Part shown: positions 14,388-52,784 of the stretch, piece by piece | How the letters are laid out: every line of letters begins with the position of its first letter | Position numbering within the stretch: position 1 is the stretch's first letter | Source of the DNA: Patescibacteria group bacterium | Lineage (GTDB): Bacteria; Patescibacteriota; Patescibacteriia; UBA11705; DATKZF01 | DNA: 64,000 nucleotides | Direction: 5' to 3' | Assembly: GCA_049319825.1 (NCBI GenBank) | Contig: JBMORT010000006.1 | Location: 166,340 to 230,339 of the forward strand | Made by a program: the position numbers and the translations under genes | Notes under the pieces: generated by a model | What the model saw: the letters and a program-made list of their open reading frames with translations, nothing else | Databases searched by the model: none | What the model was told of the DNA's origin: nothing

Positions 14388-14393
14388 ATTATT

Positions 14394-15422: not shown

Positions 15423-15423
15423 T

Positions 15424-16533: not shown

Positions 16534-16640
16534 AAATTGGAATAGGGTGTGTATAATTTTCTTTACATGACTCTTGACAAAAAATTCTACATCGCTTACA
16601 ATGGAGGTGTAAGTATTATTAAATAATTTCCATTAACACT

Positions 16641-16853
16641 ATGGATAGAAAACGAAAAGCAGACCACGAAAAAATAAAGAAAATTTTAGAAAAACGTGGT
16701 TATAAAAACGGTGAACCACCACGTGGATATGAGGTGCACCACATCAAACCACTTGCAGAAGGCGGAAAGGATACACCTAAAAATATTCGGGTAATAAAAA
16801 TAATAAAACACAAACAAATACACGCTAATCGTAAAGAAAGAAGTAAAATTTAA
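16641..16853 (+). CDS. mini HNH endonuclease (70 aa)
   Basis: The motif EVHHIKPLAEGGKDTPKNIRV...H resembles the HNH core of the upstream gene (HIKP-EGGK-T--N). Confidence 0.6.
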   Translation: MDRKRKADHEKIKKILEKRGYKNGEPPRGYEVHHIKPLAEGGKDTPKNIRVIKIIKHKQIHANRKERSKI

Positions 16854-16855
16854 TT

Positions 16856-33100: not shown

Positions 33101-35655
33101 ATCATTTTGAATGGTTTATTGATGGAGGCTTAATTCCTGACATTACCTTTGTGCCAGATTACGAGTTTACTTTTAATGACTACGGACAATACGTGTATTT
33201 TGTGCGCATTGTCCATAAAGAAAATAGTTGCATAACCGAGGGCTTCATCAATATTAATGTTGTTAAGCCTTATGAGTTGTTTGACATTTTTGATCTGGAT
33301 GTTATTTTTGAAAATCAAGAGCAAGGCAAGCATATTATTTCACTTGAGCTTCCTTCCCATGATTTCGTGGTATTTAAGGTTAACGGCGGGGCAGGACCGT
33401 TTACTTTGAGCTGTTTTTACGACATGGGCAATCCTGACCCAATCGAAATTTATGCAGCGAAAGATCTAGGAAATGTCTATTATTTATTCAATCAGGGCAC
33501 GCACATCCCTTGTTATTCTGGAAACACATTGTATTTAGATGAGGGCATTTGGCATGTCCGGATTGAAACTGGGGAAGTGATAAATAATATCATCACTTTG
33601 GAATCAAGCTTTCATCTTGACCATGAGCGTTATGCAACACAAAAATACCGAAAAGGACGGTTTTATTGGGGAGCGCTTTCTGGTGTGTGTGAGAATGATT
33701 CCGATGTCTTTTGCACCACTGGAGATATTTTAAATTTGCCAGCGGGTTTTATTCCTGTAGTAGGCGATTCAATTGATGTTTTTCAGGCAATTATAAATAT
33801 GGGCATTTACGCCCAAAAGGAGCTGGATTTAAATATTATTCGGTTGAATTCTGATTCAGAAAAGCAAGAATTTTTGCAGGCCGGAGCGTTTGCCTCAATT
33901 GCCGCGCTGACTCCGTTTATCACTAACAAAATGGTCAGGTTTGTGGCTGATGGCAATTTGTTAAATCTGGTAAAAAATGAAAAAGGTACCAGAGGAGCAA
34001 TTGACTATATCAGCTATCAGCAAGTGGCTGCCAGAGGAAGCTTGAGAATTGACAATAATGAGTTTCATCAGGATATTTTATCAAGCGAATACAATTCGTT
34101 CTCCCTGAAATTAAAAACATTTTCTGACGGAGTTGATCCGCTGTTCAAATTTGATGAAAGCTTAAAAGAAATTATGGATGAAATTGATGAGGCTGTTATT
34201 GATGTAAAACAACAAATTAAAAACAGCAATGACTTGCCAAGGATCCAGGAACACATTTTGCAGGAGTTTGGTGAAGAAGTGGACATTGATCATGTTCCAG
34301 CCACTGATTTAATCAGATATTATGATACAGATCCTGAACTAACACTTTCAGGAACTTTAAGCGAAGATGTTGCATATATCAGAGAAGGCATTGCCTCGCT
34401 TTTTGCCAGGGCAACTGCTAATCAAGCTGACATGATATTAAAGCCAGCTGGAGCTTTTGAGCGGATTGACAATGTTTATGTGCTTTTTCCCTCTAAATCA
34501 AATCTTAATCAGGTATTTCCATTGCAGGTAGGCATTAAAACGCCTTATGACCCGGTAATCGTAAGAAAAGAACATGCCGGCAGATACATTGATCTTGAAA
34601 CAGGATTTGTATATGTGGAAGGCATTAATACCTTTATTACAAAAGAGATTGATTTTGTTGCAGAGATTGAAGGCACGAATGAAATAATTGCTTTTGAATT
34701 CAAATGGGGGCGTTCAGATGATAAACAGGCAGCAAGAACTTTTGCGACTTTAAAGAAGTTATTCCCTGATAAAAAGATAAATGTAATAAACAATGCTAAT
34801 TTAAGAGATCCCACATTAACTGGAAACAGATTATGGGCAGAATCAAATATTGATTCTGATTATGTGATATATACAAATGATCCGAGTTCAATCACTCCCA
34901 CCGCAGACTTTCAAATAAATACGCCCTTTGAAATTTTCTGCGAGAATGGGCAAAATCTTGTGCCGATTCGGATTACAGCCACCAAACTGATCGACAGCTT
35001 GTGGTGCGTTAATCAGGAGAGTCAACAGCGGTACGATCAGTTTTACGAAAAAGAAGGGGAATATGTGTTGGCGGTCGCGCCAGCCGATCCGTACGGGATG
35101 GTCGCGTACAGCTGCCAAGCCACCAGCGCCGACGGCGATCAAGCGTCGGACGTGGTCACATTAATCGGATCGAAAATTCATATTCCTGAAGATGAAGACG
35201 CCAATCACAGGTTTGTCATGGCGATCGCCCCGCGATTTCCGTTAGCCGGGGAAAAAATCGAGATTGAGATTTACTCGCTCGATAAAAGCTGTTTAACCGA
35301 TGTCGATTGTCAGATTAGCGGCGCCGCTATCAGCGATAAAAGAATGAAAGTCAGACTTAAAGTGGATGATATCGAATTTCAGCATGATGGCCAGGTCACT
35401 TATGACTTCTTGGATTGCCGCGAGTATGATTTCATGTTCAATATGATCAAATCCGGACCGAATATTGTTTCCTGCACCGGCCGGTTCCTGGACGGATATT
35501 CGTTGACGCTGGAAGAAGAGGTGAATGTTCCTGTCGATCAAATCCAGCGTGTTCATAAAAGTTCTTGCCAAGTCGGGCAAGGCGTTGGCCAGCCGCTCTG
35601 GCTGACCTTGCTGGCGCTGTGGCTTTTGCCCCGGCGCCGAAAGTCCAAAATCTAA
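30193..35655 (+). CDS. giant (1820 aa) secreted Cys-rich repeat protein with C-terminal sorting-signal-like tail
   Basis: Signal peptide MRRLVAGTVILLFIILKSSQSLAG. There is an acidic region, about 700 aa of tandem Cys-rich modules (recurring ...CG.D....C......RGC..AQC...), a Cys-poor aromatic-rich region and a C-terminal tail ...CQVGQGVGQPLWLTLLALWLLPRRRKSKI. A strong RBS GGAGAGGAG precedes it and terminator 35664-35691 follows it. Confidence 0.85.
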   Translation: MRRLVAGTVILLFIILKSSQSLAGYDFIVVEPAAAEYSPGEEITFHFAFYFIQMGITCATISGSVYNESGGLIDAATQGIASDGSYHLYAYANAPSGYGVHIFEMMFHVQLCPGWQFSDGSTSISYSEDILIEIAGSATNSDVESDIDLYDEDIWEEIGDGDDVFEVGERICFEIELENDSSSDSYDIDAVYTYSSGADVDWNDDDCGVDFTLSELDEDWVDDDFCFTARELGRVKVEIYVKLEGAATLYNVDSFHIDIVCQPSWSCTNWSSCANCFQTRVCTDSHNCGTTSGKPAESQSCGIFPNQCDPFGSLCDGNVAYDCLYDSYNCYYYKSNQQTCLYGCSFGECASATECAYTDCYLDDLWCHNSAGIRTYIGQDCGALQEVEYEFICDGIERWAIAHETNRGCQSGQCYVSLHDSSYYLETCSQQCANGQCVNPDCLYTACLNNDLWCYNSANQPQYLAEDCGNASGTSTISAVYCSETGDLVKLKSYSTRCCANGACGWCFQYNYEQVQVECPAGCDPDTDQCLACVPAFDCYQAQVCLSDDTQEYQCDDLLCGQPSYTEIRPCQYCDEKCALGESYCAGNTAFTCVSVGGCDTDWQSAFCGYSEEIEGEPYCSGNNVMKDTTATDRWCADGACQQEISINAEAIADCGVDTSFSTMPYCLNDDVVFDDVEIFRGCSSGSCYEDETSESQILMACGEDTTISGVKSCNSDGNATFGDIHIVRGCENAQCHEYPIQDYFAEFVCPCGCDDGDCLPCDGCDYLDCGTSEFHSTLPYCHQGKVVFDNINIERGCADSACFAVDNSQYYQLLDDCGTDEINTNVAFCRDGNIAVGNSGYIRGCSDAQCYEESIDYVAFIILCECGCSEAACLPCYEACVSLRCNPEDGNVWCYDSWGQATSLETDCAQNEVCLGGIEYDAECVELIAPVCDQFGVGIDQTIYRAADRFPLTRTLTLELKGFFVYDVDHFEWFIDGGLIPDITFVPDYEFTFNDYGQYVYFVRIVHKENSCITEGFININVVKPYELFDIFDLDVIFENQEQGKHIISLELPSHDFVVFKVNGGAGPFTLSCFYDMGNPDPIEIYAAKDLGNVYYLFNQGTHIPCYSGNTLYLDEGIWHVRIETGEVINNIITLESSFHLDHERYATQKYRKGRFYWGALSGVCENDSDVFCTTGDILNLPAGFIPVVGDSIDVFQAIINMGIYAQKELDLNIIRLNSDSEKQEFLQAGAFASIAALTPFITNKMVRFVADGNLLNLVKNEKGTRGAIDYISYQQVAARGSLRIDNNEFHQDILSSEYNSFSLKLKTFSDGVDPLFKFDESLKEIMDEIDEAVIDVKQQIKNSNDLPRIQEHILQEFGEEVDIDHVPATDLIRYYDTDPELTLSGTLSEDVAYIREGIASLFARATANQADMILKPAGAFERIDNVYVLFPSKSNLNQVFPLQVGIKTPYDPVIVRKEHAGRYIDLETGFVYVEGINTFITKEIDFVAEIEGTNEIIAFEFKWGRSDDKQAARTFATLKKLFPDKKINVINNANLRDPTLTGNRLWAESNIDSDYVIYTNDPSSITPTADFQINTPFEIFCENGQNLVPIRITATKLIDSLWCVNQESQQRYDQFYEKEGEYVLAVAPADPYGMVAYSCQATSADGDQASDVVTLIGSKIHIPEDEDANHRFVMAIAPRFPLAGEKIEIEIYSLDKSCLTDVDCQISGAAISDKRMKVRLKVDDIEFQHDGQVTYDFLDCREYDFMFNMIKSGPNIVSCTGRFLDGYSLTLEEEVNVPVDQIQRVHKSSCQVGQGVGQPLWLTLLALWLLPRRRKSKI

Positions 35656-39242: not shown

Positions 39243-39249
39243 TTCAAAA

Positions 39250-39510
39250 ATTGCAAAACCCTAAATGAAAAATGCAAAGAAAGAGTATAAAACTTAAAGA
39301 TCCCGTGTCCCTGAGGGGACTTTTTAAAACAGCGACAGCTGGCCTTTCTGCGGCGGCATTCTCTATGGTAAGTAAGTACGTCATCGGTTCACCCCGAACC
39401 AGAGCCTCGCTATGCTTGGCACGGTTCAGGGGAGTAGTCCGATCGTTGGATTTTAATTAAGAATTACAAGTGAAATTGTTGATTCTCGTTGAAGCGAGAC
39501 GTTTTTTTTT
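39250..39510 (+). ncRNA. candidate structured non-coding transcript between tRNA-Thr and the giant gene, ending in a terminator
   Basis: The region lacks a convincing ORF and is moderately GC-rich. It has local hairpins (GTCCCTGAGGGGAC, GGTTCACCCCGAACC) and ends with a rho-independent terminator TCTCG-TTGAAG-CGAGA plus T9 at 39484-39510. No known RNA family was recognised. Confidence 0.3.
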
Positions 39511-39676
39511 AAAAAAAACAAATAAAAAAGGCCCAGGCGCAGGACTTTTTATGTATAAAATATTTATCAACAAAGACGCTGCCATAGCGACAGCAATAAA
39601 TTGAATTTTATGTTATAATAAATACAGTTACTAATGATGAATAATTATTTGAGTTTATCTTCTAAAAAAAGGGAAA

Positions 39677-42600
39677 ATGCTTTCTACAGTTTTTAAAATT
39701 AAAATTTTGAAAAAAAGTTTTTATCGATTTAAAAAGATAATATTTGTAATGTTGTCGTCTTTTATCGTTTTTTTTGCGTCTTTTTTGCAATTTGACATTA
39801 ATTCAGCCATGGCTGCCGATTCCGGATTTCAAAATCCCACGGCCAATGCGGCCGTGACCAGCGGCGCCGGAGACAATAACGGTTATCAGACAAGCCCCAC
39901 CAATGCTTACGCTGACGGAGGAGGAACGGCCATTGACTCAAACAGCGGCTCGAACACCAATGATACTTGCGCCAGCGCCGGAGCGGACAAGCACATTTGG
40001 AGCAATTTTAATTTCAATATACCGCTCGGTTCGAGCATTGACGGCATCGAGCTGCGTCAGGATTTATCGGTGGACAGTCTCAGCGATAGTCCTTTTACAT
40101 GCGTTGCTCTGTCGTGGGACGGCGGAACAACTTGGACTGCCTATAAAATCGCGTCTTTAAGCACCACCTCCGAAACGACATACACCTTTGGGAATGGAAC
40201 TGACAATTGGGGCAGATCGTGGAGTGGGGGAGAATTAAGTAACGCCAATTTTAGAGTGATGATCGCCAATGGAGATACCAATAACGCCAGATCCAGACGG
40301 GATTTTTCTCTTGATTGGATTGCTCCAAAAATTTATTATACTCCACCGACCCTGAATCAATCTGGCTATCGCCTATTTAATAATGCCGATTCCGCCAATG
40401 TGGGCAGTCCGTTGGCCGCGCTTAATTCGGCAGCTCAATTATCTTCGGGAAATGATAATTTCAGGTTGAGGCTGCTGTTGCATGACAGCGGGGTTAATTT
40501 GCCTCTGGCCGGTGATAATTTTAAACTGCAATATGTCGATAAAGGCGTGGGTACTTGCGCCGCTCCCAGTGGAGGCACTCCGGCCTCATACACTGATGTC
40601 ACCGCCGCGACAGCGATTGCTTACAGCAATAACCCGACACCGGCTGACGGCAGCGCTTTAATTGCCAATGCCAATGATCCCAGCCATGGTGCTGACGCGG
40701 TTATCAATCAGACATACGAAGAATTGAATAATTTTACAAATTCCCAAGCTCCGGTCGCGGTTGGTCAGGATGGCCTGTGGGATTTTTCTTTAAAGGATAA
40801 TACCGCGCCGGACGATAAAACATATTGTTTCCGAGTGGTGAAATCAGATGGATCTTTATTAAACGCATATTCGGTTTATCCTGAAATAATGACCGCTGAA
40901 GGCCCGCCCGTGTTAATGAGCGTCGTTGCCAGCGATCCGGACAATTGGGACAGCGTTCTCAGCAATTGGGATAGGCTGACTTTGCTTTTTAATAAAAGCA
41001 CCAATGCTCCGCAGGCCGGAACCAAGACCCAAATTGACGGCTTGATTAATTTTGCCAATCCGCTGGGTGCGAATTATTCAGGCATTTGGCAGACAACTAA
41101 TTTTATCGATGATACGTTGCGAATCACGGTTATCAGCGCCCTAGGCGGCAGTTTAAATATCGGCAATTTGATTTCAATAATCGCGGACGGCACTGAAGAT
41201 TTGAAAAATCAATCGGAGACATCTCCCGCTTCAACGACTTCCGGGAATGTCACCGGTAATTGGGGCTTCCAAAAGGCCTATTACGCCTGTGATGCGGTCG
41301 ATCAGGTATCATACATGGATGTCAATCTCGGAGCTTCTTCAAAGACCTTGTTGGGTAATCTTGGCGCGGCCAACGTTGAAGCCATTGTTTATGATTACAA
41401 TACGCAGACTTTATACGGCGCCAACGCCGGTCAATTGGGCACAATCAACCAAAGCACCGGTGCTTTTTCCGCCTTGCCGAATCCCATCGGCTCCGGCAAC
41501 GGCTCTCTCGGGGTTTTGGCTTTCAATGATGTTGACGGTCTGGCATTTGACCCTTGGACCAGCGTTTTATACGGCACGGTCAGGCGTGATCCGGGCAAGG
41601 ATTTATTGATAAAAATCAATCCGGCTACCGGCGCCAGAATCGCGAATGCATTCGGTACCGGAGTGGATTATGTGGTCATTGATGAAACGGGGGTGTTTGA
41701 CGATGTGGATGATATTAGCATCAACCCCCTCGACGATAAAATGTACACCATTGGCAATCAAGGTCATTTAACGGAAGACCAGCTTCTAATCATCAATAAA
41801 TTAACTGGTGCGATCAGTGTTCAGGCGAATTTCGGCATTATTCCCGGTTATGACATTGAAGGCATGGCCTTTTCCAGCGATGGTCGAATGTGGGGGACGC
41901 GCGGCGTGCCCAATGAATTAGTGCAGGTTATTTACAACACCAACCCTCCAACTATTACCGGCAATGTCAGTTTGGCTCCGGGTTGCGGCGATCCGGAAGG
42001 AATAGACTTCCAGATTACTTCTACCAACACGGTTACCGGAAGGGTCTGGGATGATTTGGACACGGACGGCGTTTTGGACGGCGGGGAACCGGGGTTGGCC
42101 AATGTTACCGTACGGTTATACAAAGATTTAAATAGCAATGGACTGGCGGACAGCCTCGATCTTTTAATTCAATCAAAAGTTACCGATGTTAGCGGAAATT
42201 ATACATTCAAATTTTTGGCTCTTGACGATTTTGTTTTGGAAATCGATGATTCTTCTTTGCCTTCCGGCTACGGGCTGACCACGGATAATTTGGAGGTAGC
42301 GGCTTTCACTTCGATGGGGGAGCTTGATGAAAATAATAATTTCGGCGCTGTTGCCGGTTCTGATTGCGACGGCGACGGCATTCCTGATTTTATTCAGGGG
42401 GTCGGAATAAACGATTTCGATGGAGACACGGTAATCGACAGCTGTGATTTGGACGTGGATAATGACGGCATATTGAATGCGATGGAAAGTTCCAATGATC
42501 GGGATGGTGATTCAATTCCAAATTTTAGAGATGTGGATTCGGATAACGACGGCATCCCTGATGCCAGGGAAGCCAATAGCGGCGTTGCGCCGACCGGTTA

Positions 42601-45600
42601 TAATATCAGTTTGGGATATATGACCGGCACGGATACGGACGGTGACGGTTTACTCGATCAGGTGGACAGCCTGCCGGCCGTTCAGTATGGCGCCAGCGCG
42701 TCTACTTTGCCGATACCCAATACCGATTCGGACGCAGTCCGCGATTTTCTTGACGGGGATTCTGATAATGACGGCATTTTAGACATCATCGAAGCCGGCG
42801 GCGCTGACAGCGATGGAGACGGCGAGATAGACAGTTTCACCGATGTCAACGGTGATGGGTATCATGACCCGCTGAATACATCACCGTTACCGTTACCCAA
42901 TACCGATATTTCAGGAAAGCCTAACTATCTTGATTTGGATTCAGACGGGGATGGTCTGCCTGATTTTAGAGAAGGTCAGTCAACGGCCAGTTACCATGTG
43001 CCGCTGATAATAAGTGATGCTGATGGCAACGGTATCATTGACGCTTATGACAAATCAGCGGGCGGGAATCCTATCGTGCCGGTGGATACAGACAGCGATG
43101 GCATTCCGGATTATCGCGATTTGGACACCGATAATGACAGTCTTACGGATATCAGTATCGGCGAGGGACACGCCAGCGCCACTTTGGTCGGAGCGGATAC
43201 CGATTCGGATGGTATTGATAACGGTTTTGATACCAATAATTCTCCCTCATATTATTTTTTAAATAATACCGCGGTGACCGATAATCCGCCGCCAAATACT
43301 TTCGGCACTTCAGAGTATAACTGGCGCGAGTTTGACGCCGTGCCCTCAGCTGATTTATCTTTGGATAAATTGGTAGACAATAGCGCGCCCAATGTCGGAG
43401 ACACCATTACCTATACCATCACCGTTTCCAATGCCGGGCCGAATAACGCCACCAATGTATCAGTCGTTGATTTATTGCCGGCCGGAGTGACATATTCGAG
43501 CGCGACGCCTTCTCAGGGCAGTTACAATAATATTTCCGGAGTATGGACTGTTGGAACGATTAATAACGGATCGACCGCCAGTTTGCAGATTTCAGCCACG
43601 GTGAATGTCGGAACCGGCAATTCAACAATATCAAATTCGGCTCAGGTTTCAGCGTCTGATCAGGCAGATCCCGATTCGACTCCGAATAACAATATGCCGC
43701 TCGAAGATGATCAAGACAGTGATGACATCGACGTTCAGGCGGCCGATTTATCTTTGGTTAAGATTGTCGATAATGTCACGCCAAATGTTGGGGATATTGT
43801 GAAATACACGATAACCGTTTCCAATGGCGGTCCGGATACGGCCACAAATGCGGTGGTCAAGGATATTTTGCCGGTTGGTGTTACTTATTCCAGTGATAAT
43901 CCGTCGCAAGGAAGTTATAATTCAGGTACGGGCCTATGGACGATTGGCACAATAAATAATGGTGCTAATGCTGTTTTGGAAATCAATGCGGATGTTGATA
44001 CCGGAACGGGCGGCACTACTATTGATAATACCGCTGAAGTATATTCCGTTGATCAAGAAGATCCTGATTCGACCCCAGATAATAATGTCCCTGCCGAAGA
44101 TGACCAGTCGAGCGTTTCAATTACGGTCGAGTCGGCCGATGTCGCCATTACCAAAACGGACGCGGCAGATCCGGTGACCTTGGGCAATAACATTCAATAC
44201 GATGTGACAGTCACCAATAACGGTCCGTCGGACGCGACCAATGTTGATGTGACCGACACATTGCCGGCGGGGGTGACGTATGTCAGCGCCACGCCAAGTC
44301 AGGGAAGTTGTTCGGAATTGGCCGGAACAGTGACGTGTAATTTGAATACCATCAATAATGGCAATAGCGCGACCATCACCATAATCGTCACGCCAACCTC
44401 CAGTGGAAGTTTTACCAATAATATTTCAGTGACGGCCACGGAAAGCGATCCGACGCCGGGCAATAATTCAGATAGCGAAGATACGACAGTCGGAGACGTT
44501 GCTGATTTGTCTTTGACCAAAACTGTCGATATTTCAAATCCAAACGTGGGGGACATGATTACCTATACTATTACCGTTTCCAATGCCGGCGCGGGAAATG
44601 CGACCGGAGTTTCCGTCAAAGATATTTTACCGGCTGGCGTTACGTATTCGAGCGACACTCCTTCTCAGGGTACTTATAATTCGGTTACCGGTGTTTGGAC
44701 ATTGGGCAGTATCGCTAACGGCGCCAGCGCTATCTTGCAGATCAGCGCCATTGTGGATGCAGGCTCTGCCGGAAGCAGCATTGCCAATATTGCTCAAGTA
44801 TCAGCGTCAGACCAGCCCGATCCTGATTCTACCCCAAATAACAATGCTCCGGCCGAAGATGATCAGGACAGCGCTTCCATTACCGTGCAATCAGCTGATT
44901 TGTCTTTAACAAAAACTGTTGATAATGCCGCGCCAAATGAGGGAGATACCATTCAATACACAATTATTCTAAATAATAGTGGACCGGACAATGCGGAAAA
45001 TGTTTCCGTGAAAGATTTGTTGCCGGTCGGAGTGACATATTCTTTTGATATTCCTTCTCAGGGAACATACGATTCAATCACCGGCATTTGGAACATCGGT
45101 AATGTTATTGGTTTAGCCAGCGCCACGCTTCAAATAAGCGCCACAGTCGATATCGGCTCAGCTGGAATTCCCATTGTTAATACAGCGGAAGTGATTGCCA
45201 GCGATCAGGAAGATCCTGATTCGACTCCGAATAATGATGTTCCGGCCGAAGACGATCAAGACAGCGTCATTATAAATTCCAGCGGCGCGGATTTGGAATT
45301 AACCAAGACAGACAGCATTGATCCGATCTACCTGGGGTCAAATATCCTTTATAATATTGCCGTTCTAAATAATGGACCGGCAGACGCCACCGGCGTGATC
45401 GCCACTGACAGCTTACCGGCCGGAGTGACATATGTCAGCGCCACTCCGAGTCAGGGAGCCTGCGCGGAAGCCGCGGGGATGATTACATGCAATTTGAATA
45501 ATATCAGCAATGGCAGCAGTGCGACGATTGCCATTACGGTTATACCGTTGTCTGACGGGATTTATGCGAATAGCGCTTCAGTGTCAGCTTCGGAATCAGA

Positions 45601-48109
45601 TCCGCTGCCCGCCAATAACAGCGATAATGAAAATACGACGGTCGATCCGGTCAGTGATTTATCATTGACAAAGATCATTGATAATAATAATCCAAGTATT
45701 GGAAATTCGATTAAGTATACTTTAACTCTATTAAATTCCGGTCCCAGTCAAGCGACTAATGTGTTTATTAAAGATTTATTGCCGGCGGGCCTGACTTACG
45801 TCGGTAATACACCGTCTCAGGGAACATATGATTCACTGACAGGCGAATGGACGGTCGGAGTCGTTAATAGCGGCGCCAGCGCCACTTTGGAAGTGAGCGC
45901 GACGGTTAACAGCGGCACGGCCGGGCAAGTGATTAATAATACCGGAGAAGTTATTGCCTGCGATCAACATGATTCTGACTCGACTCCCAATAATAATCTG
46001 CCGGCTGAAGATGACCAAGCGAGCGTTAGTTTAACCGTAAAATCCGGTGGCGGCGGCGGTGGCGGTGGCGGTGGCGGATCTGTTCCTCCGGCAGCCTGCG
46101 TGGCGATTTCCGGCGCGAATTCATCATTAAAAATCAATAATGGCGCTGAAAAAACGGATAGTTTAAGCGTACTGTTAAACTTGTCTTATTCCACCGCTAC
46201 TTCGGTGATGTTTAGCGAGAATTCCGATTTTACCGGCGCTTCTTCTCAGCCGGTATCGGGCAGTTTGCCTTTTTCACTCAGTTCGGGAGCGGGAGAAAAA
46301 AAGGTTTACGCCAAATTATCGAATCAGTGTTCGAGTGTTACTGTTGCTGATACCATTTTATATGAATTGCCCGAATCCGAGGAATGCATCGTTAATTGTG
46401 ACCAAATTACTTATAAACTTTATATTGTCAATCCAGACGGTACCGAGAGGCACGCGGGAACCAATTATGTTCAGCAGGAGCAAGTCGCGGACGGCATTGT
46501 ATTATATAAATTCGAAGACAAAGGCTTGGATTTTGATTATAACGACGTCTTTGTTCAGGTAGACGACCGCAATTGTTCCGGTGTAAAGTTTAGCGTCACC
46601 CGAGAGCTGGAAGCAAGCTGGCACCATCAGATAGGAGTCAATATTTTTTACCAAGGGAAGCTGTCAAAACATATTTTACTCTGGTCGGATTCTCACACTT
46701 CATTCGGAAATGAAAGGACGTATGATTTTTCAACCGACCAGAGTCTCTGCGAAGAGTCAATCGAGCCGATCGAAGAGCCGGAGATCGAGCCTGAACCGGA
46801 AGTGCCAGTCGAGTGCGTCGTTGACTGCGACAAAGTCAAGTTTGATCTATTCATTGTCAATCCCGACGGCACCGAGAGACATTCTGGTACCAGGTTTGTC
46901 GAGGAAGAAAAGGTTTCCGACGGTGTGATATTATATAAATTCGAAGATAAAGGCGAAGATTTTGATTACAATGATGTATTCGTGCAGGTGGACCGTCGCG
47001 ATTGCGCCAATGTGATTTTCAGCGTTACCAAAGAGCTCGAAGCCAGCTGGCATCATCAAATAAAAGTCAGATTATCCGGCAATGGAATAGTCGGCGGCGC
47101 CATCACTCTGTGGCCCGATTCCCACATGTCGTTTGGCAATGAGCGGTCGCTCGATGTTTCCGCCGATCAGAGTCTTTGCCAGCAGTGCGTAACTGATTGC
47201 CAAAGAGTGACTTACGATTTATACATTGTTAATCCTGACGGTACCGAGAGGCGCATGAACAGCCGTTATGCTCAGATTGAAGATCAGGGCAATGGCGTGA
47301 TTTTGGTGAAATTTGAAGACAAGGGAAATGACTTCGATTACAATGACGTTTTAATAAAAGTTGACAAGAGCACTTGTGAAATTATCAAAGTGACTTCGCT
47401 TCAGCTGGAAGCCGGTTGGCATCATCAGATAAAAATCAAGCTGCTGTATGACGGGATCGAGCGAAATGACGTTTTGCTTTGGGCTGATTCGCATCTGTCA
47501 GTGGATCAGTCGAAAGAGGTGAATTTGACCGATTACTCTCGGCTCTGTGAAGTTGATTTGCTGGATAAAGTGGAACAGGCCGCGGTTACAGTTTTTGAGC
47601 ATATTAATTTTTTGGGCAGGTCTCAGACTTTCGTCGCCGGTCAAAAAGTGCCTGAGCTGACTGTTTTTTCTTTCAATAATTTAATATCATCCGTGAAAAT
47701 CGTAGGCAATGCGGCGGTAGATTTTTTCACTGAGGCGTTGTACTCTGGCAGATCAGAGCGTTTTAGCCAAGACGACTTTGATTTAAGAAATAATTCTATC
47801 GGAAACGATACGGTGACGTCGCTTCAAGTGTCTTTACGCGCTCAAAATATTCCATCCGCATCGGCCGCAGCGCTCCGCTGCGGCGGAAATGTTGTCTTCA
47901 GCGAAATGACAGCCGGCGATCAGGGATCGAATGTTGTCTCGCTTCAGGAATTGTTGAAATGTTTGGGATTTTTTCCCCAAGGTCAGCCAGCTACCGGATA
48001 TTTCGGACCGGTTACGGAGAATGCGCTTAAAAATTTTCAGCTGTCAAATGGGATTGAGCCATCCGGGTATTTGGATCAGGCGACCCTGAGCGCGATCAAT
48101 GATTTATAA
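39677..48109 (+). CDS. giant (2810 aa) multi-domain surface protein / putative adhesin
   Basis: N-terminal signal/anchor helix. Aspartate-rich Ca-binding DxDxDG(I/L)xD repeats are TSP3-like (about aa 880-1200). About 8 tandem DUF11 repeats follow (LSLDKLVDN...VTYSS..PSQG...G.W..G). Then come a poly-Gly linker (GGGGGGGGGGGS), 3 tandem DUF4114-like repeats (VNPDGTER...FEDKG.DFDYNDV...WHHQI) and a beta/gamma-crystallin-like domain (VFEHINFLGRSQTF). The C-terminus is a PG_binding_1 domain (LQELLKCLGF...GYFGPVTENALKNFQ). Confidence 0.9.
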   Translation: MLSTVFKIKILKKSFYRFKKIIFVMLSSFIVFFASFLQFDINSAMAADSGFQNPTANAAVTSGAGDNNGYQTSPTNAYADGGGTAIDSNSGSNTNDTCASAGADKHIWSNFNFNIPLGSSIDGIELRQDLSVDSLSDSPFTCVALSWDGGTTWTAYKIASLSTTSETTYTFGNGTDNWGRSWSGGELSNANFRVMIANGDTNNARSRRDFSLDWIAPKIYYTPPTLNQSGYRLFNNADSANVGSPLAALNSAAQLSSGNDNFRLRLLLHDSGVNLPLAGDNFKLQYVDKGVGTCAAPSGGTPASYTDVTAATAIAYSNNPTPADGSALIANANDPSHGADAVINQTYEELNNFTNSQAPVAVGQDGLWDFSLKDNTAPDDKTYCFRVVKSDGSLLNAYSVYPEIMTAEGPPVLMSVVASDPDNWDSVLSNWDRLTLLFNKSTNAPQAGTKTQIDGLINFANPLGANYSGIWQTTNFIDDTLRITVISALGGSLNIGNLISIIADGTEDLKNQSETSPASTTSGNVTGNWGFQKAYYACDAVDQVSYMDVNLGASSKTLLGNLGAANVEAIVYDYNTQTLYGANAGQLGTINQSTGAFSALPNPIGSGNGSLGVLAFNDVDGLAFDPWTSVLYGTVRRDPGKDLLIKINPATGARIANAFGTGVDYVVIDETGVFDDVDDISINPLDDKMYTIGNQGHLTEDQLLIINKLTGAISVQANFGIIPGYDIEGMAFSSDGRMWGTRGVPNELVQVIYNTNPPTITGNVSLAPGCGDPEGIDFQITSTNTVTGRVWDDLDTDGVLDGGEPGLANVTVRLYKDLNSNGLADSLDLLIQSKVTDVSGNYTFKFLALDDFVLEIDDSSLPSGYGLTTDNLEVAAFTSMGELDENNNFGAVAGSDCDGDGIPDFIQGVGINDFDGDTVIDSCDLDVDNDGILNAMESSNDRDGDSIPNFRDVDSDNDGIPDAREANSGVAPTGYNISLGYMTGTDTDGDGLLDQVDSLPAVQYGASASTLPIPNTDSDAVRDFLDGDSDNDGILDIIEAGGADSDGDGEIDSFTDVNGDGYHDPLNTSPLPLPNTDISGKPNYLDLDSDGDGLPDFREGQSTASYHVPLIISDADGNGIIDAYDKSAGGNPIVPVDTDSDGIPDYRDLDTDNDSLTDISIGEGHASATLVGADTDSDGIDNGFDTNNSPSYYFLNNTAVTDNPPPNTFGTSEYNWREFDAVPSADLSLDKLVDNSAPNVGDTITYTITVSNAGPNNATNVSVVDLLPAGVTYSSATPSQGSYNNISGVWTVGTINNGSTASLQISATVNVGTGNSTISNSAQVSASDQADPDSTPNNNMPLEDDQDSDDIDVQAADLSLVKIVDNVTPNVGDIVKYTITVSNGGPDTATNAVVKDILPVGVTYSSDNPSQGSYNSGTGLWTIGTINNGANAVLEINADVDTGTGGTTIDNTAEVYSVDQEDPDSTPDNNVPAEDDQSSVSITVESADVAITKTDAADPVTLGNNIQYDVTVTNNGPSDATNVDVTDTLPAGVTYVSATPSQGSCSELAGTVTCNLNTINNGNSATITIIVTPTSSGSFTNNISVTATESDPTPGNNSDSEDTTVGDVADLSLTKTVDISNPNVGDMITYTITVSNAGAGNATGVSVKDILPAGVTYSSDTPSQGTYNSVTGVWTLGSIANGASAILQISAIVDAGSAGSSIANIAQVSASDQPDPDSTPNNNAPAEDDQDSASITVQSADLSLTKTVDNAAPNEGDTIQYTIILNNSGPDNAENVSVKDLLPVGVTYSFDIPSQGTYDSITGIWNIGNVIGLASATLQISATVDIGSAGIPIVNTAEVIASDQEDPDSTPNNDVPAEDDQDSVIINSSGADLELTKTDSIDPIYLGSNILYNIAVLNNGPADATGVIATDSLPAGVTYVSATPSQGACAEAAGMITCNLNNISNGSSATIAITVIPLSDGIYANSASVSASESDPLPANNSDNENTTVDPVSDLSLTKIIDNNNPSIGNSIKYTLTLLNSGPSQATNVFIKDLLPAGLTYVGNTPSQGTYDSLTGEWTVGVVNSGASATLEVSATVNSGTAGQVINNTGEVIACDQHDSDSTPNNNLPAEDDQASVSLTVKSGGGGGGGGGGGSVPPAACVAISGANSSLKINNGAEKTDSLSVLLNLSYSTATSVMFSENSDFTGASSQPVSGSLPFSLSSGAGEKKVYAKLSNQCSSVTVADTILYELPESEECIVNCDQITYKLYIVNPDGTERHAGTNYVQQEQVADGIVLYKFEDKGLDFDYNDVFVQVDDRNCSGVKFSVTRELEASWHHQIGVNIFYQGKLSKHILLWSDSHTSFGNERTYDFSTDQSLCEESIEPIEEPEIEPEPEVPVECVVDCDKVKFDLFIVNPDGTERHSGTRFVEEEKVSDGVILYKFEDKGEDFDYNDVFVQVDRRDCANVIFSVTKELEASWHHQIKVRLSGNGIVGGAITLWPDSHMSFGNERSLDVSADQSLCQQCVTDCQRVTYDLYIVNPDGTERRMNSRYAQIEDQGNGVILVKFEDKGNDFDYNDVLIKVDKSTCEIIKVTSLQLEAGWHHQIKIKLLYDGIERNDVLLWADSHLSVDQSKEVNLTDYSRLCEVDLLDKVEQAAVTVFEHINFLGRSQTFVAGQKVPELTVFSFNNLISSVKIVGNAAVDFFTEALYSGRSERFSQDDFDLRNNSIGNDTVTSLQVSLRAQNIPSASAAALRCGGNVVFSEMTAGDQGSNVVSLQELLKCLGFFPQGQPATGYFGPVTENALKNFQLSNGIEPSGYLDQATLSAINDL
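43330..46030 (+). repeat. DNA-level tandem array of about 8 DUF11-repeat coding units (~375-390 bp each) inside the giant gene
   Basis: Recurring nucleotide blocks such as GATTTATCTTTG..., CCGGATTCGACTCC/CCTGATTCGACTCC and GAAGATGATCAAG are visible by eye. Boundaries are approximate. Confidence 0.6.
46370..47560 (+). repeat. 3 tandem DUF4114-like coding repeats (~390-420 bp) inside the giant gene
   Basis: TGTGACCAAATTACTTATAAACTTTATATTGTCAATCCAGACGGTACCGAGAGGCAC recurs as ...GTCAATCCCGACGGCACCGAGAGACAT and ...GTTAATCCTGACGGTACCGAGAGGCGC. Confidence 0.65.
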
Positions 48110-49883: not shown

Positions 49884-50957
49884 GTGTCCGAACCCGAACG
49901 GAGCAGGAGCATGGAATGCACGGGTCGTAGTGTCTGCTGGACGCTGATAGTTGCGGTTATCACTTGCGGATGTTCGGTGTCGACCACGAGAGGCGATGCC
50001 CAATTGGAAAAAGACCTGTCATATATCGACGATGCTCAAAGCGATACCATTCCCGTTGACGATTTATTGTACAATTATAATGACACTGTCAATGACAGTG
50101 ATCATGAAATAGTCGAAGACTGTGCCGATCCGGGTGATCAAATTGAATTGAATGATTTTGCAACCATTGAAGCGGTGACAGAAATCGATGGGGTGGAAAT
50201 TTCACTGGAAACTGAAGTGGAACCGGATAGCTGCCACCCTGCGTGCCAAGGTCGCCAGTGCGGCCCGGACGGTTGTGGCAGTGAATGCGGTATTTGCTCA
50301 GATGATCAAATTTGCCTTGACGGCCAGTGCGCTTGCGAGAGTGTTGATTGCGACGACCAATGCTGCGATGCAAAGGAAGTATGCTTCCACGGCCAGTGTT
50401 GTCTTGCTGATTGCGCCTTTGCCGAATGCGGCTCGGACGGTTGTGGAGGAATGTGCGGTGATTGCATCGCCGATGAAATTTGTCACCCGACCGATCGCAT
50501 TTGCGTGGCGGTCACCACCAGCGTTCATATCTCGGGAAATCTCGACAAAAGAGATTTCTTTATGGTCGAAGAGTTCGATCCAGCAAATCCTTATGGCAGT
50601 TCGAATTATGCGATGTCATTCAATATTCGCGACGCCTCCAACAAACTTGTTGAGGCGATGATTTTTTTCGGGAAGTACGGAGACAATTTATGGGAATGGA
50701 ACATCGTGGTTGACGGCCAGACTCAATCATCCGGCATCGCCGGTGAAAACATCGTTTTGGGAAACGGTCAATTGTATTTTGATAATGATGGAGAATTGAT
50801 TCCGAACATGGAGCTGGATTTTATTACTGTTAACCCGGCCAATGCCTTGCCGACTACCATTTTCATTGATTTTGGCTATGATCAAGTCAGTTTTTTCAGT
50901 GTCACTCAGTACTCGAATTTATACACTCTGGATGTTGTAGTGTATCCTGATCTGTAA
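49884..50957 (+). CDS. secreted Cys-rich protein, hypothetical
   Basis: N-terminal hydrophobic signal (SVCWTLIVAVITCGCS) and a Cys-dense core (CQGRQCGPDGCGSECGICSDDQICLDGQCACESVDCDDQCCD...CGSDGCGGMCGDC). RBS GGAGCAGGAGC. Confidence 0.6.
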   Translation: MSEPERSRSMECTGRSVCWTLIVAVITCGCSVSTTRGDAQLEKDLSYIDDAQSDTIPVDDLLYNYNDTVNDSDHEIVEDCADPGDQIELNDFATIEAVTEIDGVEISLETEVEPDSCHPACQGRQCGPDGCGSECGICSDDQICLDGQCACESVDCDDQCCDAKEVCFHGQCCLADCAFAECGSDGCGGMCGDCIADEICHPTDRICVAVTTSVHISGNLDKRDFFMVEEFDPANPYGSSNYAMSFNIRDASNKLVEAMIFFGKYGDNLWEWNIVVDGQTQSSGIAGENIVLGNGQLYFDNDGELIPNMELDFITVNPANALPTTIFIDFGYDQVSFFSVTQYSNLYTLDVVVYPDL

Positions 50958-50963
50958 AGTGCC

Positions 50964-52784
50964 ATGTGCCGCGGGCGAAAGCAGGTCGCTTTCAAACCCG
51001 CAATCAACAGCGCCAGGAAAGGTGGAAACCCCATGAGAAAAACGCTGGTTGCGCTGATCGCATTTCTATTTTGTGCCAACGCTTATGCTTATGATGTTCA
51101 TCCGTATCAGCACATGGAAGATCCGATTTTCGTCAATGTCACGGATCCGGTAAACCTTCCCATTCTCGAAGATACCATCATCATGGCCGATGACAGCATC
51201 ATTATTGCCGTTGCCGAGAATCGATCCGGCACGGCAAATGACGGTATTTATATTTATCGTTCGATTGATGGCGGGCAGAGTTGGACATATCAATCAAAGG
51301 TTGGCGGCGGGCAGTTTCCGTAAAGAAAGCATGTCTCGTTCGCTCGCTATGGAAACACCTTGTATATGCTGCATACCAATGTGAATGATTTAACCAATTG
51401 TTCTGAAAATCATCATTATCCTTATTTTTCACGAAGCACCGATTTTGGAGCTACTTGGGTTCACAAAGGCGCAATCACCGCGCTAAGTACCACTGATTGC
51501 GATCACAATTTTAAGGGAAAATTACAATTGCTTGTCAGCCCGGTCAGCCATTATTTGGTGGCCGCATATTCTGGCACACAAACAAAGATCAATCAGGGCT
51601 CAGTCAAGCCCAGGTACATCATCACACGAACCAGTACCGATGGCGGGGATAATTGGTATCCGGAAAATCAATTTGTCTCTCAGTGGGATTCATCTGCCAT
51701 TGAGCTACTTGATTTGGAGTTTGCTGATAATGATTATTTGGTATTGGTTCATGGGGCGTTTGACGCAACCAGTGAAACCGCTCATGTTTACGCGGATGTT
51801 TCCGCCAACTATGGCGTGTATGATTATGATTATGATTCGGCGATTCTAACCAGCAATTATAGCTCCAACCACCATGCGACATCGGTTACCGGTGGGGACG
51901 CTCAATTCTATGTGGATCAATCCGGAAACAAATCCGTCAAAATCGTTTTTTCCACGGAGGACGACTATCGGTACTCGGAATTGAAATATACCACAATCCT
52001 CGGCTGGTATTTTGATGACGTGGATGGACATCCAGGTTATACTCCCAATTATGTTCTTGGTTATACGCCATTGGGAGGAGCGGCGTTATATAATTGTGTC
52101 AAAGATCCTCACTTGACGGTTGGAACGGAAAACGCTTTGGTTTTGAGTTACAGATATGATACTTATACCGATGATGTTGTCGGTTCGAATATCTATTTTA
52201 AGAGAATCGATTTGCCAAGGCTGCTAACCAATCGTCTCAACAATGAATTCGGTTCCCTTGCCTCGTACAATGACCGGCAATTCCGGGTGCTGAGATTCGT
52301 CGGAAACAGACTATACGGATTTTACACCGATTATGGATATCGGGACACAGCCAATGATGTCAAGGAATTGCGAATCGGGCTGACTGTCTCTGATCCGAAC
52401 AAAGAAGACGACATTCCCGGGTATCAGGATAATATCGTCGTTCGATTTTTGGATGATACTGTTTTTTCGGAAACATTGACCGGCGGTGCAGCGGTCGCTT
52501 GGCGATACGGCAATTTCTCCAATCCGTTCCCCGGCCGGCCAGTGAAAGTCGACATGTGGTTGGAGTACACCTCTCTCGAGCCGGGCGGCGGTTCGCAAAT
52601 TTTGGAAAACGTCGCCTGGAACGACGTTTTATTGGACATGTCCAGCCAAGGCAGTATCAGCGTGGAGAAGCTCTATTTCGGCGGTATCCAGGAAGGCACG
52701 ACCTTGTTGACCGTGCACATCGGCGATGTGGACACTCACACGTCGTGGAGCTCCGACTCCTTTGTGTTCACGCTGGCGTTTTAA
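50964..52784 (+). pseudogene. BNR/Asp-box repeat (sialidase-fold-like) secreted protein interrupted by a single in-frame TAA at 51321-51323
   Basis: ORFs 50964..51323 and 51360..52784 are in the same frame and separated only by the TAA. Asp-box motifs SIDGGQSW (before the stop) and STDFGATW, TSTDGGDNW (after) continue the same repeat series. There is an N-terminal signal peptide. Confidence 0.55.

What the first reader, a model, noticed from the sequence alone, without database searches (positions are those of the whole stretch)
39677..48109. 2810-aa modular surface giant: TSP3-like Ca-binding repeats + 8x DUF11 + Gly11 linker + 3x DUF4114-like + beta/gamma-crystallin + PG-binding
The domain series suggests a cell-wall-tethered extended fibre. 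A C-terminal PG_binding_1 domain would tether it to the wall. Calcium-rigidified aspartate repeats and Ig-like DUF11 beads would form a stalk.

The DUF4114-like and beta/gamma-crystallin-like units sit between the stalk and the PG_binding_1 domain. The membrane-distal N-terminal ~850 aa (Ser/Thr/Asn/Gly-rich, no recognised domain) may be the specific binding region.

The exact 11-Gly run and the near-identical DNA repeats (DUF11 x8, DUF4114-like x3) make this gene a likely hotspot for recombination and length variation.
Basis: partly seen in the sequence, partly recalled or inferred. Interest (0 to 1): 0.6.

Follow-up and report, generated by a model that had tools for sequence, protein, structure and literature searches.

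The report
Giant wall-anchored adhesin of a Patescibacterium
This is a real 2810-residue secreted protein of an uncultured Patescibacteria bacterium, built like a known type of bacterial fibre adhesin (sugar-binding-like head, calcium- and cross-link-stiffened stalk, cell-wall-binding foot); it is an unusual mosaic but not a new kind of thing.

Summary
The ORF (39677-48109, +, 2810 aa) is real.

Two points fail. There are seven DUF11 units, not eight. The DNA repeats are not near-identical: units are 50-68% identical and the longest exact repeat in the gene is 19 nt. The recombination-hotspot idea therefore has no sequence support apart from the 33-nt (GGY)11 tract.

New findings:
- DUF11 is now the CLIPPER isopeptide domain, and all seven units keep the Lys/Asp/Asn triad.
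- The last 676 aa form a cassette that recurs as small C-terminal wall-binding proteins in Falkowbacteria, Uhrbacteria and other Patescibacteria.
- No full-length orthologue was found; the gene is a mosaic of four module blocks.

Best reading: a non-covalently wall-anchored, Ca-dependent fibrillar adhesin. It is a new member of a known kind, of modest interest.

The parts
39611..39676 (+). Putative expression signals: extended -10-like TGTTATAAT (39611-39619) and a purine-rich AAAGGGAAA directly before the ATG
   Evidence: Read from the sequence. The consensus scan found no canonical -35/-10 pair on the + strand. Inference only.
39677..48109 (+). Whole ORF, 2810 aa plus stop. Mature protein is about 290 kDa, pI about 4.05, with 380 D+E against 115 K+R
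   Evidence: An identical product occurs in an NCBI Patescibacteria MAG (P0001) and in a Logan assembly (L001).
39677..39814 (+). Sec-type signal peptide (aa 1-46): Lys/Arg-rich n-region, hydrophobic core aa 21-37, A-M-A|A-D cleavage motif
   Evidence: Hydropathy scan shows it is the only hydrophobic segment in the protein. The region aligns with the N-terminus of homologue P0008. NCBI's TTG start at residue 37 would remove it. No signal-peptide predictor was available.
39815..40342 (+). Head module A (aa 47-222): beta-sandwich with no Pfam family. It occurs at the extreme C-terminus of many WD40/FN3 giants and at the N-terminus of others
40343..40906 (+). Head module B (aa 223-410): beta-sandwich with no Pfam family. 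Widespread, with up to 13 matched stretches of the A+B query (best stretch in module B) in one protein
40907..41281 (+). Presumed Ig-like module (aa 411-535), assigned only by homology to tandem repeats in P0017
   Evidence: AF2 did not model it (pLDDT below 50). Weakest assignment in the list.
41282..42037 (+). DUF6923-like repeat module (aa 536-787), probably a beta-propeller-type unit
   Evidence: Weak Pfam DUF6923 hit that overlaps this module only partly (about aa 496-607; E 1.5e-4, 22 bits against 27). Homologues P0169 and P0174 carry PF21959; P0013, P0006 and P0007 match at 37-43%. The fold was not modelled here.
42038..42316 (+). SdrD B-like domain (aa 788-880) with two Ca-type Asp motifs
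   Evidence: Pfam PF17210, E 7e-10, 39.5 bits against 29.7. Motifs at aa 793 and 817.
42362..43222 (+). Thirteen thrombospondin-type-3-like Ca-binding motifs (D-x-D-x-D-G-x-x-D), aa 896-1182
   Evidence: Regex scan and DNA repeat family D5. Pfam TSP_3/TSP3_bac sub-threshold. NCBIfam MtsC 'throspo3' E 1e-4. Homologue P0106 carries PF18884.
43349..46045 (+). Seven CLIPPER (DUF11, PF01345) domains, aa 1225-2123. Unit lengths are 131,131,122,131,131,122,131. Lys7/Asp41/Asn96 are invariant. Units 3 and 6 carry a Cys pair
   Evidence: Pfam 694 bits, 7 stretches. Alignment A1. Profile hit to 9IFR aligns the Lys and the Asp. Unit identities are 37-72% aa and 50-68% DNA.
46046..46078 (+). Gly11 linker encoded by (GGY)11, at the junction between stalk and C-terminal cassette
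   Evidence: A paralogue in the same MAG (P0124) has a run of nine Gly at the equivalent junction, and P0121 has PPPGPGPGPSP there.
46109..46372 (+). FN3/Ig-like domain (aa 2145-2232), the first unit of the cassette
46376..47554 (+). Three DUF4114 units (aa 2234-2376, 2377-2500, 2501-2626) with a conserved FEDxGxDxDYNDV acidic cluster and conserved Cys
   Evidence: Pfam PF13448, 54.9 bits, 3 stretches. Invariant D414/D418/D423, W447 and H449 in alignment A3. AF2 confident. Units are 41-56% identical at aa level.
47585..47842 (+). Single beta/gamma-crystallin domain (aa about 2637-2722) with two Greek-key signatures and two Ca-binding motifs
   Evidence: Profile against PDB: Protein S E 5e-9, clostrillin 2e-6, spherulin 3a 3e-5. 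Motifs FEHINFLG, FTEALYSG, NNLISS and NDTVTS. Pfam sub-threshold. AF2 pLDDT below 50.
47921..48097 (+). PG_binding_1 domain (aa 2749-2807) at the extreme C-terminus. No LPXTG motif and no C-terminal transmembrane segment

Best explanation
The gene encodes a roughly 290-kDa, very acidic, secreted fibrillar adhesin of a Patescibacteria (candidate phyla radiation) bacterium.

Proposed mechanism:
1. A Sec signal peptide is cleaved after Ala46 (inferred).
2. The mature N-terminus is a modular head. It has two beta-sandwiches whose best solved matches are mostly carbohydrate-binding modules (A, B), an Ig-like unit and a DUF6923-type repeat unit. The head most likely binds a glycan or other surface ligand on another cell or substrate (fold predicted; binding inferred).
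3. The head is held away from the cell by a stalk. The stalk consists of an SdrD-B domain, 13 TSP3-type Ca-binding motifs and seven CLIPPER domains. The CLIPPER domains keep the Lys-Asp-Asn triad that autocatalytically forms an intramolecular isopeptide bond (triad shown; bond inferred). Ca2+ and the covalent cross-links would make the stalk stiff and protease- and force-resistant.
4. A Gly11 hinge joins the stalk to a C-terminal foot: an FN3-like unit, three Ca-type DUF4114 units, one Ca-binding beta/gamma-crystallin domain and a PG_binding_1 domain.
5. The foot holds the protein non-covalently in the producer's own peptidoglycan wall, possibly with help from wall glycans (homology shown; anchoring inferred).

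The gene is a mosaic of four module blocks, each found separately in other proteins.
For: - The ORF and its identical product occur in two assemblies, named by NCBI as a Patescibacteria peptidoglycan-binding protein.
- The only hydrophobic segment is an N-terminal signal-like one, conserved in P0008.
- The A-B pair directly after a signal peptide recurs in many proteins.
- There are seven CLIPPER units with invariant K7/D41/N96; K and D align to the isopeptide Lys and the neighbouring Asp of 9IFR (PMC12617251).
- The stalk carries 13 TSP3-type motifs plus an SdrD_B domain.
- PG_binding_1 is shown by sequence and by fold.
- The crystallin domain has both Ca motifs.
- DUF4114 scores above the Pfam cut-off and has a conserved acidic cluster. 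DUF4114 has been tied to Ca-dependent function in M. xanthus PilY1.1, where sugar binding was proposed, and to experimentally shown mannose binding in Acanthamoeba AcMBP-1 (PMC9109919, PMC11934332).
- The cassette, or its DUF4114 unit, lies within 15 residues of the C-terminus in 24 of 41 homologues with varied N-terminal parts. This is the pattern expected of an anchor.
- Homologues with the same head or stalk blocks carry C-terminal anchors: Por_Secre_tail in P0013, OmpA in P0027 and in the CLIPPER reference adhesin.
- The window encodes D-Ala-D-Ala ligase, so the organism makes peptidoglycan.
Against: - There is no experimental datum: no localisation, no ligand, and no mass-spectrometric proof of isopeptide bonds.
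- The signal peptide was judged by eye, and the NCBI annotation starts 36 codons downstream.
- The Ig-like unit (aa 411-535) and the crystallin domain were not modelled confidently.
- The DUF4114 units found no clear solved-structure relative here.
- Peptidoglycan-binding domains of Patescibacteria proteins have also been proposed to grip host cells (PMC10936435), so the polarity is not proven.
Confidence: 0.6

Rival explanations
1. Reversed or bridging polarity. The C-terminal cassette (DUF4114 lectin-like units, crystallin, PG_binding_1) is the business end that grips the cell wall of a host or partner bacterium. The N-terminus would stay attached to the producer through an uncleaved signal-anchor, or the head would bind the producer's own envelope. 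The protein would then be an episymbiosis tether.
For: - Patescibacteria are typically epibionts, and highly expressed PG-binding-domain proteins have been proposed as host-attachment factors (PMC10936435).
- DUF4114 is linked to sugar binding.
- The cassette is restricted to Patescibacteria-type MAGs.
- The N-terminal hydrophobic segment is 17 residues long, which could in principle span a membrane.
Against: - The segment has a classical A-x-A cleavage motif, and module A starts right after it, as in homologues.
- Small cassette proteins (440-850 aa) are too short to bridge two cells and look like resident wall proteins.
- The cassette behaves like a promiscuous C-terminal appendage on many different passengers.
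- Known CLIPPER adhesins are anchored at the C-terminus.
Confidence: 0.2
2. The protein is not an adhesin with a specific ligand. It is a structural envelope or matrix component: a Ca-binding, wall-associated scaffold or spacer comparable to S-layer-associated or biofilm-matrix giants. It would shape the cell surface or sequester Ca2+.
For: - Extreme acidity (pI about 4.05, 380 acidic residues) and at least 20 predicted Ca sites.
- Modules A and B occur in up to 13 matched stretches of the A+B query in one protein, as structural beads might.
- The flanking genes are housekeeping (TIM, PGI, tRNAs), with no accessory adhesion or secretion genes.
Against: - The terminal placement of a distinct head made of four different modules, followed by a uniform stalk, is the fibrillar-adhesin pattern rather than a lattice-former.
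- No SLH or self-assembly domain was found.
- The Foldseek matches have TM-scores of 0.3 or below and carry little information.
Confidence: 0.15
3. Assembly chimera: the mosaic ORF is an artefact that joins fragments of different genes or genomes across repeats.
For: - No full-length orthologue was found among 5.8 billion proteins, and each block has separate best homologues.
- Both records may derive from the same sample.
Against: - The protein sequence is identical in two independently produced assemblies: a 365-kb NCBI MAG contig and a 39-kb Logan contig.
- The frame is uninterrupted for 8.4 kb, and GC is even at 0.46-0.48 across the gene.
- Internal repeats are too diverged (19 nt exact at most) to mislead an assembler.
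- The Gly-run junction is mirrored in a paralogue of the same MAG.
Confidence: 0.03

Closest known systems
Fibrillar adhesins with CLIPPER (DUF11) stalks, e.g. Acinetobacter silvestris B9T28_05395 (PDB 9IFR; Costa et al. 2025, PMC12617251)
   Same: - Signal peptide, N-terminal adhesive region, tandem CLIPPER stalk and a C-terminal peptidoglycan-binding anchor.
- The Lys/Asp/Asn isopeptide triad is conserved in every unit.
- A disulphide-type Cys pair is present in some units.
   Different: - The anchor is PG_binding_1 preceded by DUF4114 units and a crystallin domain, not OmpA-like.
- The head consists of modules A and B plus a DUF6923-like unit, not CshA-like domains.
- The host is a monoderm-like Patescibacterium, a phylum not mentioned in that survey's main text.
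- Sequence similarity to 9IFR is marginal (E 3e-3).
Gram-positive MSCRAMM / Sdr-family adhesins (SdrD B-repeats; LPXTG sortase anchoring)
   Same: An SdrD B-like Ca-binding domain, an Ig-like bead stalk, and an N-terminal ligand-binding region with a C-terminal wall attachment.
   Different: No LPXTG motif, C-terminal transmembrane segment or charged tail, so attachment would be non-covalent. There is no SD-repeat region.
Small Patescibacteria wall-binding cassette proteins (P0121, P0123, P0125, P0128; Falkowbacteria locus L003; paralogue P0124 in the same MAG)
   Same: The order of parts is the same: flexible linker, FN3-like unit, 1-3 DUF4114 units, then (crystallin) and PG_binding_1. Identity is 35-43% over aa 2137-2808.
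   Different: These proteins are 440-930 aa with a small or different N-terminal passenger. Here the passenger is a 2100-aa head plus stalk. None of them is characterised.
DUF4114-containing lectin-type modules (Myxococcus PilY1.1; Acanthamoeba mannose-binding protein AcMBP-1)
   Same: A Pfam PF13448 match with a conserved acidic Ca-type cluster.
   Different: Here the units are in triplicate next to a peptidoglycan-binding domain, not at a pilus tip or on a eukaryotic receptor. Sugar binding is untested.
Microbial beta/gamma-crystallins (Protein S, clostrillin, spherulin 3a)
   Same: A double Greek-key signature and both N/D-N/D-x-x-S/T-S Ca sites; profile E 5e-9 to 3e-5.
   Different: It is a single embedded domain in a giant surface protein. 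It scores below the Pfam gathering threshold, and AF2 did not model it confidently.

Membership tests
Fibrillar adhesin (signal peptide + adhesive region + repeat stalk + surface anchor) | N-terminal secretion signal | tested here: met
   Lys/Arg-rich n-region, 17-residue hydrophobic core and an AMA|AD motif. It is the only hydrophobic segment and is conserved in P0008. Judged by inspection; no predictor was available.
Fibrillar adhesin (signal peptide + adhesive region + repeat stalk + surface anchor) | Stalk of tandem Ig-like repeat domains | tested here: met
   Seven tandem CLIPPER/DUF11 domains (694 bits; alignment), plus SdrD_B.
Fibrillar adhesin (signal peptide + adhesive region + repeat stalk + surface anchor) | Terminal adhesive (ligand-binding) domain | tested here: inconclusive
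Fibrillar adhesin (signal peptide + adhesive region + repeat stalk + surface anchor) | Cell-surface anchoring module at the opposite end | tested here: met
CLIPPER / DUF11 (PF01345) isopeptide domain | Match to the family model above the curated cut-off | tested here: met
   694.3 bits against 24.6, 7 stretches. TIGR01451: 325 bits, 7 stretches.
CLIPPER / DUF11 (PF01345) isopeptide domain | Lys (first strand), catalytic Asp and Asn (late strand) triad | tested here: met
   K7, D41 and N96 are invariant in all 7 units. K aligns with Lys715 of 9IFR, and D with the Asp of L-N-D-T. The Asn lies beyond the HMMER-aligned stretch, at a spacing consistent with Asn806.
CLIPPER / DUF11 (PF01345) isopeptide domain | Isopeptide bond actually formed | not testable with these tools
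   Needs mass spectrometry or a crystal structure of a recombinant unit.
DUF4114 (PF13448) | Match above the curated cut-off | tested here: met
   54.9 bits against 27, three stretches, on the aa 2224-2623 segment. 44.9 bits on the whole protein.
DUF4114 (PF13448) | Conserved acidic (Ca-type) cluster | tested here: met
   FEDKGxDFDYNDV is present in all three units. D414, D418 and D423 are invariant and E413 nearly invariant across 19 sequences.
DUF4114 (PF13448) | Ca-dependent carbohydrate binding | not testable with these tools
   Known only by analogy: AcMBP-1 mannose binding was shown experimentally, and PilY1.1 sugar binding was proposed.
Beta/gamma-crystallin (PF00030) | Match above the Pfam gathering score | tested here: not met
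   21.1 bits against 25.
Beta/gamma-crystallin (PF00030) | Two Greek-key signatures (Y/F/W-x4-Y/F-x-G) and similarity to solved members | tested here: met
   FEHINFLG (aa 2640) and FTEALYSG (aa 2684). Profile E 5e-9 to Protein S, 2e-6 to clostrillin and 3e-5 to spherulin 3a.
Beta/gamma-crystallin (PF00030) | Microbial Ca-binding motif N/D-N/D-x-x-S/T-S | tested here: met
   NNLISS (aa 2667) and NDTVTS (aa 2710).
Thrombospondin type 3 repeat (PF02412 / PF18884) | Match above the Pfam gathering score | tested here: not met
   15.3 and 14.9 bits against 25.
Thrombospondin type 3 repeat (PF02412 / PF18884) | Repeated D-x-D-x-D-G-x-x-D Ca-binding motif | tested here: met
   13 copies in aa 896-1182. 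Homologous stretches in P0106 and P0027 carry PF18884 and PF02412.
PG_binding_1 (PF01471) | Sequence and fold match | tested here: met
Sortase-anchored LPXTG surface protein | C-terminal LPXTG motif + hydrophobic segment + basic tail | tested here: not met
   No LPXTG near the C-terminus and no second hydrophobic segment. The protein ends inside PG_binding_1.

The most novel reading that the evidence does not exclude
The last 676 residues (Gly hinge, FN3-like unit, DUF4114 x n, beta/gamma-crystallin, PG_binding_1) would represent a previously undescribed, Patescibacteria-restricted, Ca-dependent multivalent cell-wall-gripping cassette. It would either replace sortase/LPXTG or OmpA-type anchoring in these ultrasmall bacteria, or grip the wall of the host bacterium. 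In the second case this giant would be a two-ended, glycan-binding tether that physically links epibiont and host.
Probability: 0.2. Interest if true: 0.6.

Novelty: new member of a known kind. Interest (0 to 1): 0.3.

Why it matters
How candidate-phyla-radiation bacteria attach to surfaces or host cells is largely unknown, and they cannot be grown alone. This gene gives a concrete, well-dissected candidate.
- It has a head of uncharacterised but very widespread modules (more than 3400 cluster representatives) whose predicted fold resembles carbohydrate-binding modules.
- It would extend the predicted isopeptide-stabilised CLIPPER stalk to Patescibacteria, a phylum the 2025 survey's main text does not mention.
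- It carries a recurrent wall-binding cassette that could be expressed and tested on sacculi.

In itself it is one more modular surface giant. The value lies in the defined, testable parts rather than in a new principle.

Tried and rejected
- Whole-protein phmmer against PDB sequences found nothing. Only domain profiles worked.
- An Rfam search of the 434-nt upstream intergenic region found only a chance-level hit (E 0.89).
- A search for orthologues to compare repeat copy number found none. The best non-self hit covers 32% of the query, the stalk only. The genome-collection scan returned only cassette relatives. Copy-number variation therefore could not be assessed.
- A BLAST of the other large ORFs of the window against the giant found no shared modules.
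- The recombination-hotspot idea was rejected on DNA divergence.
- The assembly-chimera idea was considered and judged unlikely.
- AF2 failed on the Ig-like unit (aa 411-535) and on the crystallin domain because the alignments were too shallow there.
Full report
**Observation**

The window holds one uninterrupted ORF at 39677..48109 on the + strand, 2810 codons. The identical product is on record twice. One is an NCBI entry, 'MAG: peptidoglycan-binding protein [Patescibacteria group bacterium]', on a 365-kb contig. The other is a Logan assembly of SRR32167788.

NCBI starts the protein at a TTG 36 codons downstream, which removes the hydrophobic N-terminus. The upstream ATG gives a classical signal peptide: a Lys/Arg-rich n-region, a hydrophobic core at aa 21-37 and an A-M-A|A-D motif. 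This is the only hydrophobic segment in the protein. The region also aligns with the N-terminus of homologue P0008.

**Domain list**

- Pfam and NCBIfam confirm DUF11/TIGR01451, but with seven copies, not eight. The DNA repeat finder also gives seven in-register copies, with spacings 393, 393, 366, 393, 393, 366.
- PG_binding_1 (aa 2749-2807, E 5e-16) and SdrD_B (aa 788-871) are above threshold.
- DUF4114 is above threshold with three stretches.
- The Gly run is exactly 11 residues (aa 2124-2134), encoded by (GGY)11.
- TSP3 Pfam models are only sub-threshold, but the D-x-D-x-D-G-x-x-D motif occurs 13 times in aa 896-1182. Homologous stretches in other proteins carry TSP3 Pfam annotations.
- Beta/gamma-crystallin is sub-threshold in Pfam (21.1 against 25 bits). 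A profile of this segment with two homologues hits Protein S (E 5e-9), clostrillin and spherulin 3a. Both Greek-key signatures and both canonical microbial Ca motifs are present. I accept it as a crystallin domain even though AF2 did not model it confidently.

**What is wrong in the observation**

The repeats are old and diverged. CLIPPER units are 37-72% identical at protein level and 50-68% at DNA level. DUF4114 units are 41-56% and 55-60% identical. The longest exact direct repeat anywhere in the 8.4-kb gene is 19 nt. Only the 33-nt Gly tract is a near-perfect DNA repeat.

The unit-length pattern (131, 131, 122 repeated) and the pairings 1~4 and 3~6 point to an ancient duplication of a three-unit block. 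They do not indicate ongoing homogenisation.

**What the parts are**

DUF11 was renamed CLIPPER in 2025. It was shown by crystallography (9IFR) to be a CnaA-like domain with an autocatalytic Lys-Asn isopeptide bond that raises the melting temperature by about 35 degrees C and protects against proteinase K. [quoted passage not shown]

In the alignment of the seven units, K7, D41 and N96 are invariant. A profile of the seven units hits 9IFR. It aligns K7 with the isopeptide Lys715 and D41 with the Asp next to it in the structure's L-N-D-T strand. The Asn lies just beyond the aligned stretch, at a compatible spacing. Units 3 and 6 also carry a Cys pair, in line with the frequent disulphides reported for CLIPPER.

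**The N-terminal region**

The N-terminal 'domain-less' region is modular.

- BLAST mapping of the 120 best database hits shows two separately mobile modules. Module A (aa about 47-222) sits at the extreme C-terminus of many WD40/FN3 giants. Module B (aa about 223-410) occurs in tandem copies in many 1500-2400-aa proteins.
- An exhaustive HMMER search with A+B finds 3407 cluster representatives at E<=1e-3. Some have up to 13 matched stretches, and many have the A-B pair directly after the N-terminus, as here.
- AlphaFold2 with a 25-sequence alignment models both modules as beta-sandwiches. pLDDT is 89-98 for B and mostly 83-93 for the core of A.
- Next come a unit related to tandem Ig-like repeats (aa 411-535, not modelled) and a unit related to DUF6923 proteins (aa 536-787).

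**The C-terminal cassette**

The last 676 residues behave as one cassette. Proteins of 440-930 aa match aa 2137-2808 almost end to end at 35-43% identity, with the same order of parts: linker, FN3-like unit, 1-3 DUF4114 units, optional crystallin, PG_binding_1. Examples are P0121, P0123, P0125 and P0128.

A paralogue on the same MAG contig (P0124) has a run of nine Gly at exactly the equivalent junction, and P0121 has a Pro/Gly linker there. The Gly11 run is therefore a conserved hinge at a module boundary.

In 24 of 41 homologues the cassette, or its DUF4114 unit, ends within 15 residues of the C-terminus, behind very different N-terminal parts. A scan of one genome per species found relatives in MAGs labelled Falkowbacteria, Uhrbacteria and Patescibacteria. 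It also found them in MAGs with uninformative or, I suspect, mislabelled titles. One Falkowbacteria example has DUF4114 and a C-terminal PG_binding_1.

DUF4114 has a conserved FEDxGxDxDYNDV cluster here. In the literature it is linked to Ca-dependent function in PilY1.1, where sugar binding was proposed. It is also the experimentally shown mannose-binding domain of AcMBP-1.

**Mosaic nature**

No protein among 5.8 billion matches the whole length. The best non-self hit covers 32% of the query, the stalk only. Four blocks have separate best relatives:

| Block (aa) | Best relative | Identity |
|---|---|---|
| 8-596 | P0008 | 46% |
| 535-1191 | P0013 | 43% |
| Stalk (1225-2182) | P0002-P0005 | 38-41% |
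| Cassette (2137-2808) | P0121, P0123 | 39% |

An assembly chimera is unlikely. The sequence is identical in two assemblies, GC is even across the gene, the internal repeats are too diverged to mislead an assembler, and the hinge is mirrored in a paralogue.

**Context**

The flanking genes are housekeeping: an M16 peptidase, triose-phosphate isomerase, a TPR protein, tRNA-Thr, glucose-6-phosphate isomerase and tRNA-Tyr. There is no sortase, secretion system or pilus gene next to the giant. The window encodes D-Ala-D-Ala ligase, so the organism builds peptidoglycan.

**Mechanism**

The best-supported reading (about 0.6) is a Sec-secreted fibrillar adhesin. A glycan-binding-type head sits at the distal N-terminus. 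The stalk is stiffened by Ca2+ and isopeptide bonds. A Gly hinge follows. A non-covalent, probably Ca-dependent and multivalent foot sits in the producer's wall.

- Shown: the ORF, the domain identities, triad conservation, fold predictions for modules A and B and for the cassette, the recurrence and C-terminal position of the cassette, and the absence of LPXTG.
- Inferred: signal-peptide cleavage, bond formation, Ca binding, ligand class, anchoring and polarity.

The main rival (about 0.2) reverses or doubles the polarity, so that the cassette grips a host wall. This has been suggested for PG-binding proteins of other Patescibacteria. A structural or matrix role (about 0.15) and an artefact (about 0.03) complete the list.

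**Comparison and novelty**

In organisation the protein works like the CLIPPER-stalk fibrillar adhesins described in 2025. It meets the sequence-testable criteria of that class. It is not a sortase/LPXTG protein (tested, not met). The new points are:
- the phylum;
- the particular mosaic;
- the uncharacterised A/B head modules;
- the DUF4114-crystallin-PG_binding_1 foot.

I rate it a new member of a known kind, with interest 0.3.

Noticed in passing
window 13278-17623: A low-GC islet (GC 0.36-0.38 against about 0.45) lies next to tRNA-Gln. It carries a Hypoth_Ymh protein, an EcoRI-type adenine methyltransferase (E 3e-136), a GmrSD_N+HNH endonuclease and an HTH+SocA/Panacea antitoxin-like protein. 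It is probably an acquired restriction/defence island.
   Followed up: partly
window 30193-35655 (+): A second giant ORF of 1820 aa has a signal-peptide-like N-terminus, no Pfam match at 1e-3 and no similarity to the 2810-aa protein.
   Followed up: partly
window 52919-56344 (+): A 1141-aa ORF without any Pfam match lies directly upstream of a GH3 glycosidase gene (56351-57445).
   Followed up: no
window 50964-51323 and 51360-52784 (+): Two adjacent ORFs carry Asp-box/BNR-like motifs (SIDGGQSW, STDFGATW, STDGGDNW) but have no Pfam hit. They may be a diverged or split sialidase-like propeller. The preceding ORF (49884-50957) has a weak FlgE_D2 match.
   Followed up: no
window 57595-58233 (-): A bacterial protein matches the mTERF family clearly (E 1e-22). 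That family is better known from organelles.
   Followed up: no
window 39243-39676: The 434-nt intergenic region between tRNA-Thr and the giant gene has two terminator-like hairpins (39307-39320 and 39484-39499) and a GC-rich, possibly structured stretch (about 39340-39450). No Rfam family matches.
   Followed up: partly
window 39677-39787: The public NCBI annotation of this protein starts at a TTG at codon 37 (2774 aa) and so loses the signal peptide. The upstream ATG is supported by homologue P0008.
   Followed up: yes
P0124, P0122, P0126, P0131, P0132, P0134, P0136 (cassette homologues; not in window): Several cassette homologues carry a further conserved domain of about 130 aa (consensus G-x-L-I-K-G...VYY...G-K-R-H-x-F-P-N...Y-x-S-W-Y...V-x-Y-R-P-G) with no Pfam annotation. 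It sits in place of, or next to, the crystallin domain. It looks like another uncharacterised Patescibacteria wall-protein module.
   Followed up: no
modules A/B, window 39815-40906: Modules A and B have no Pfam family, either in the copy used here or in the precomputed annotations of hits made mostly of them. They nevertheless have more than 3400 cluster representatives and up to 13 matched stretches of the A+B query in one protein. They are good candidates for new family definitions.
   Followed up: partly
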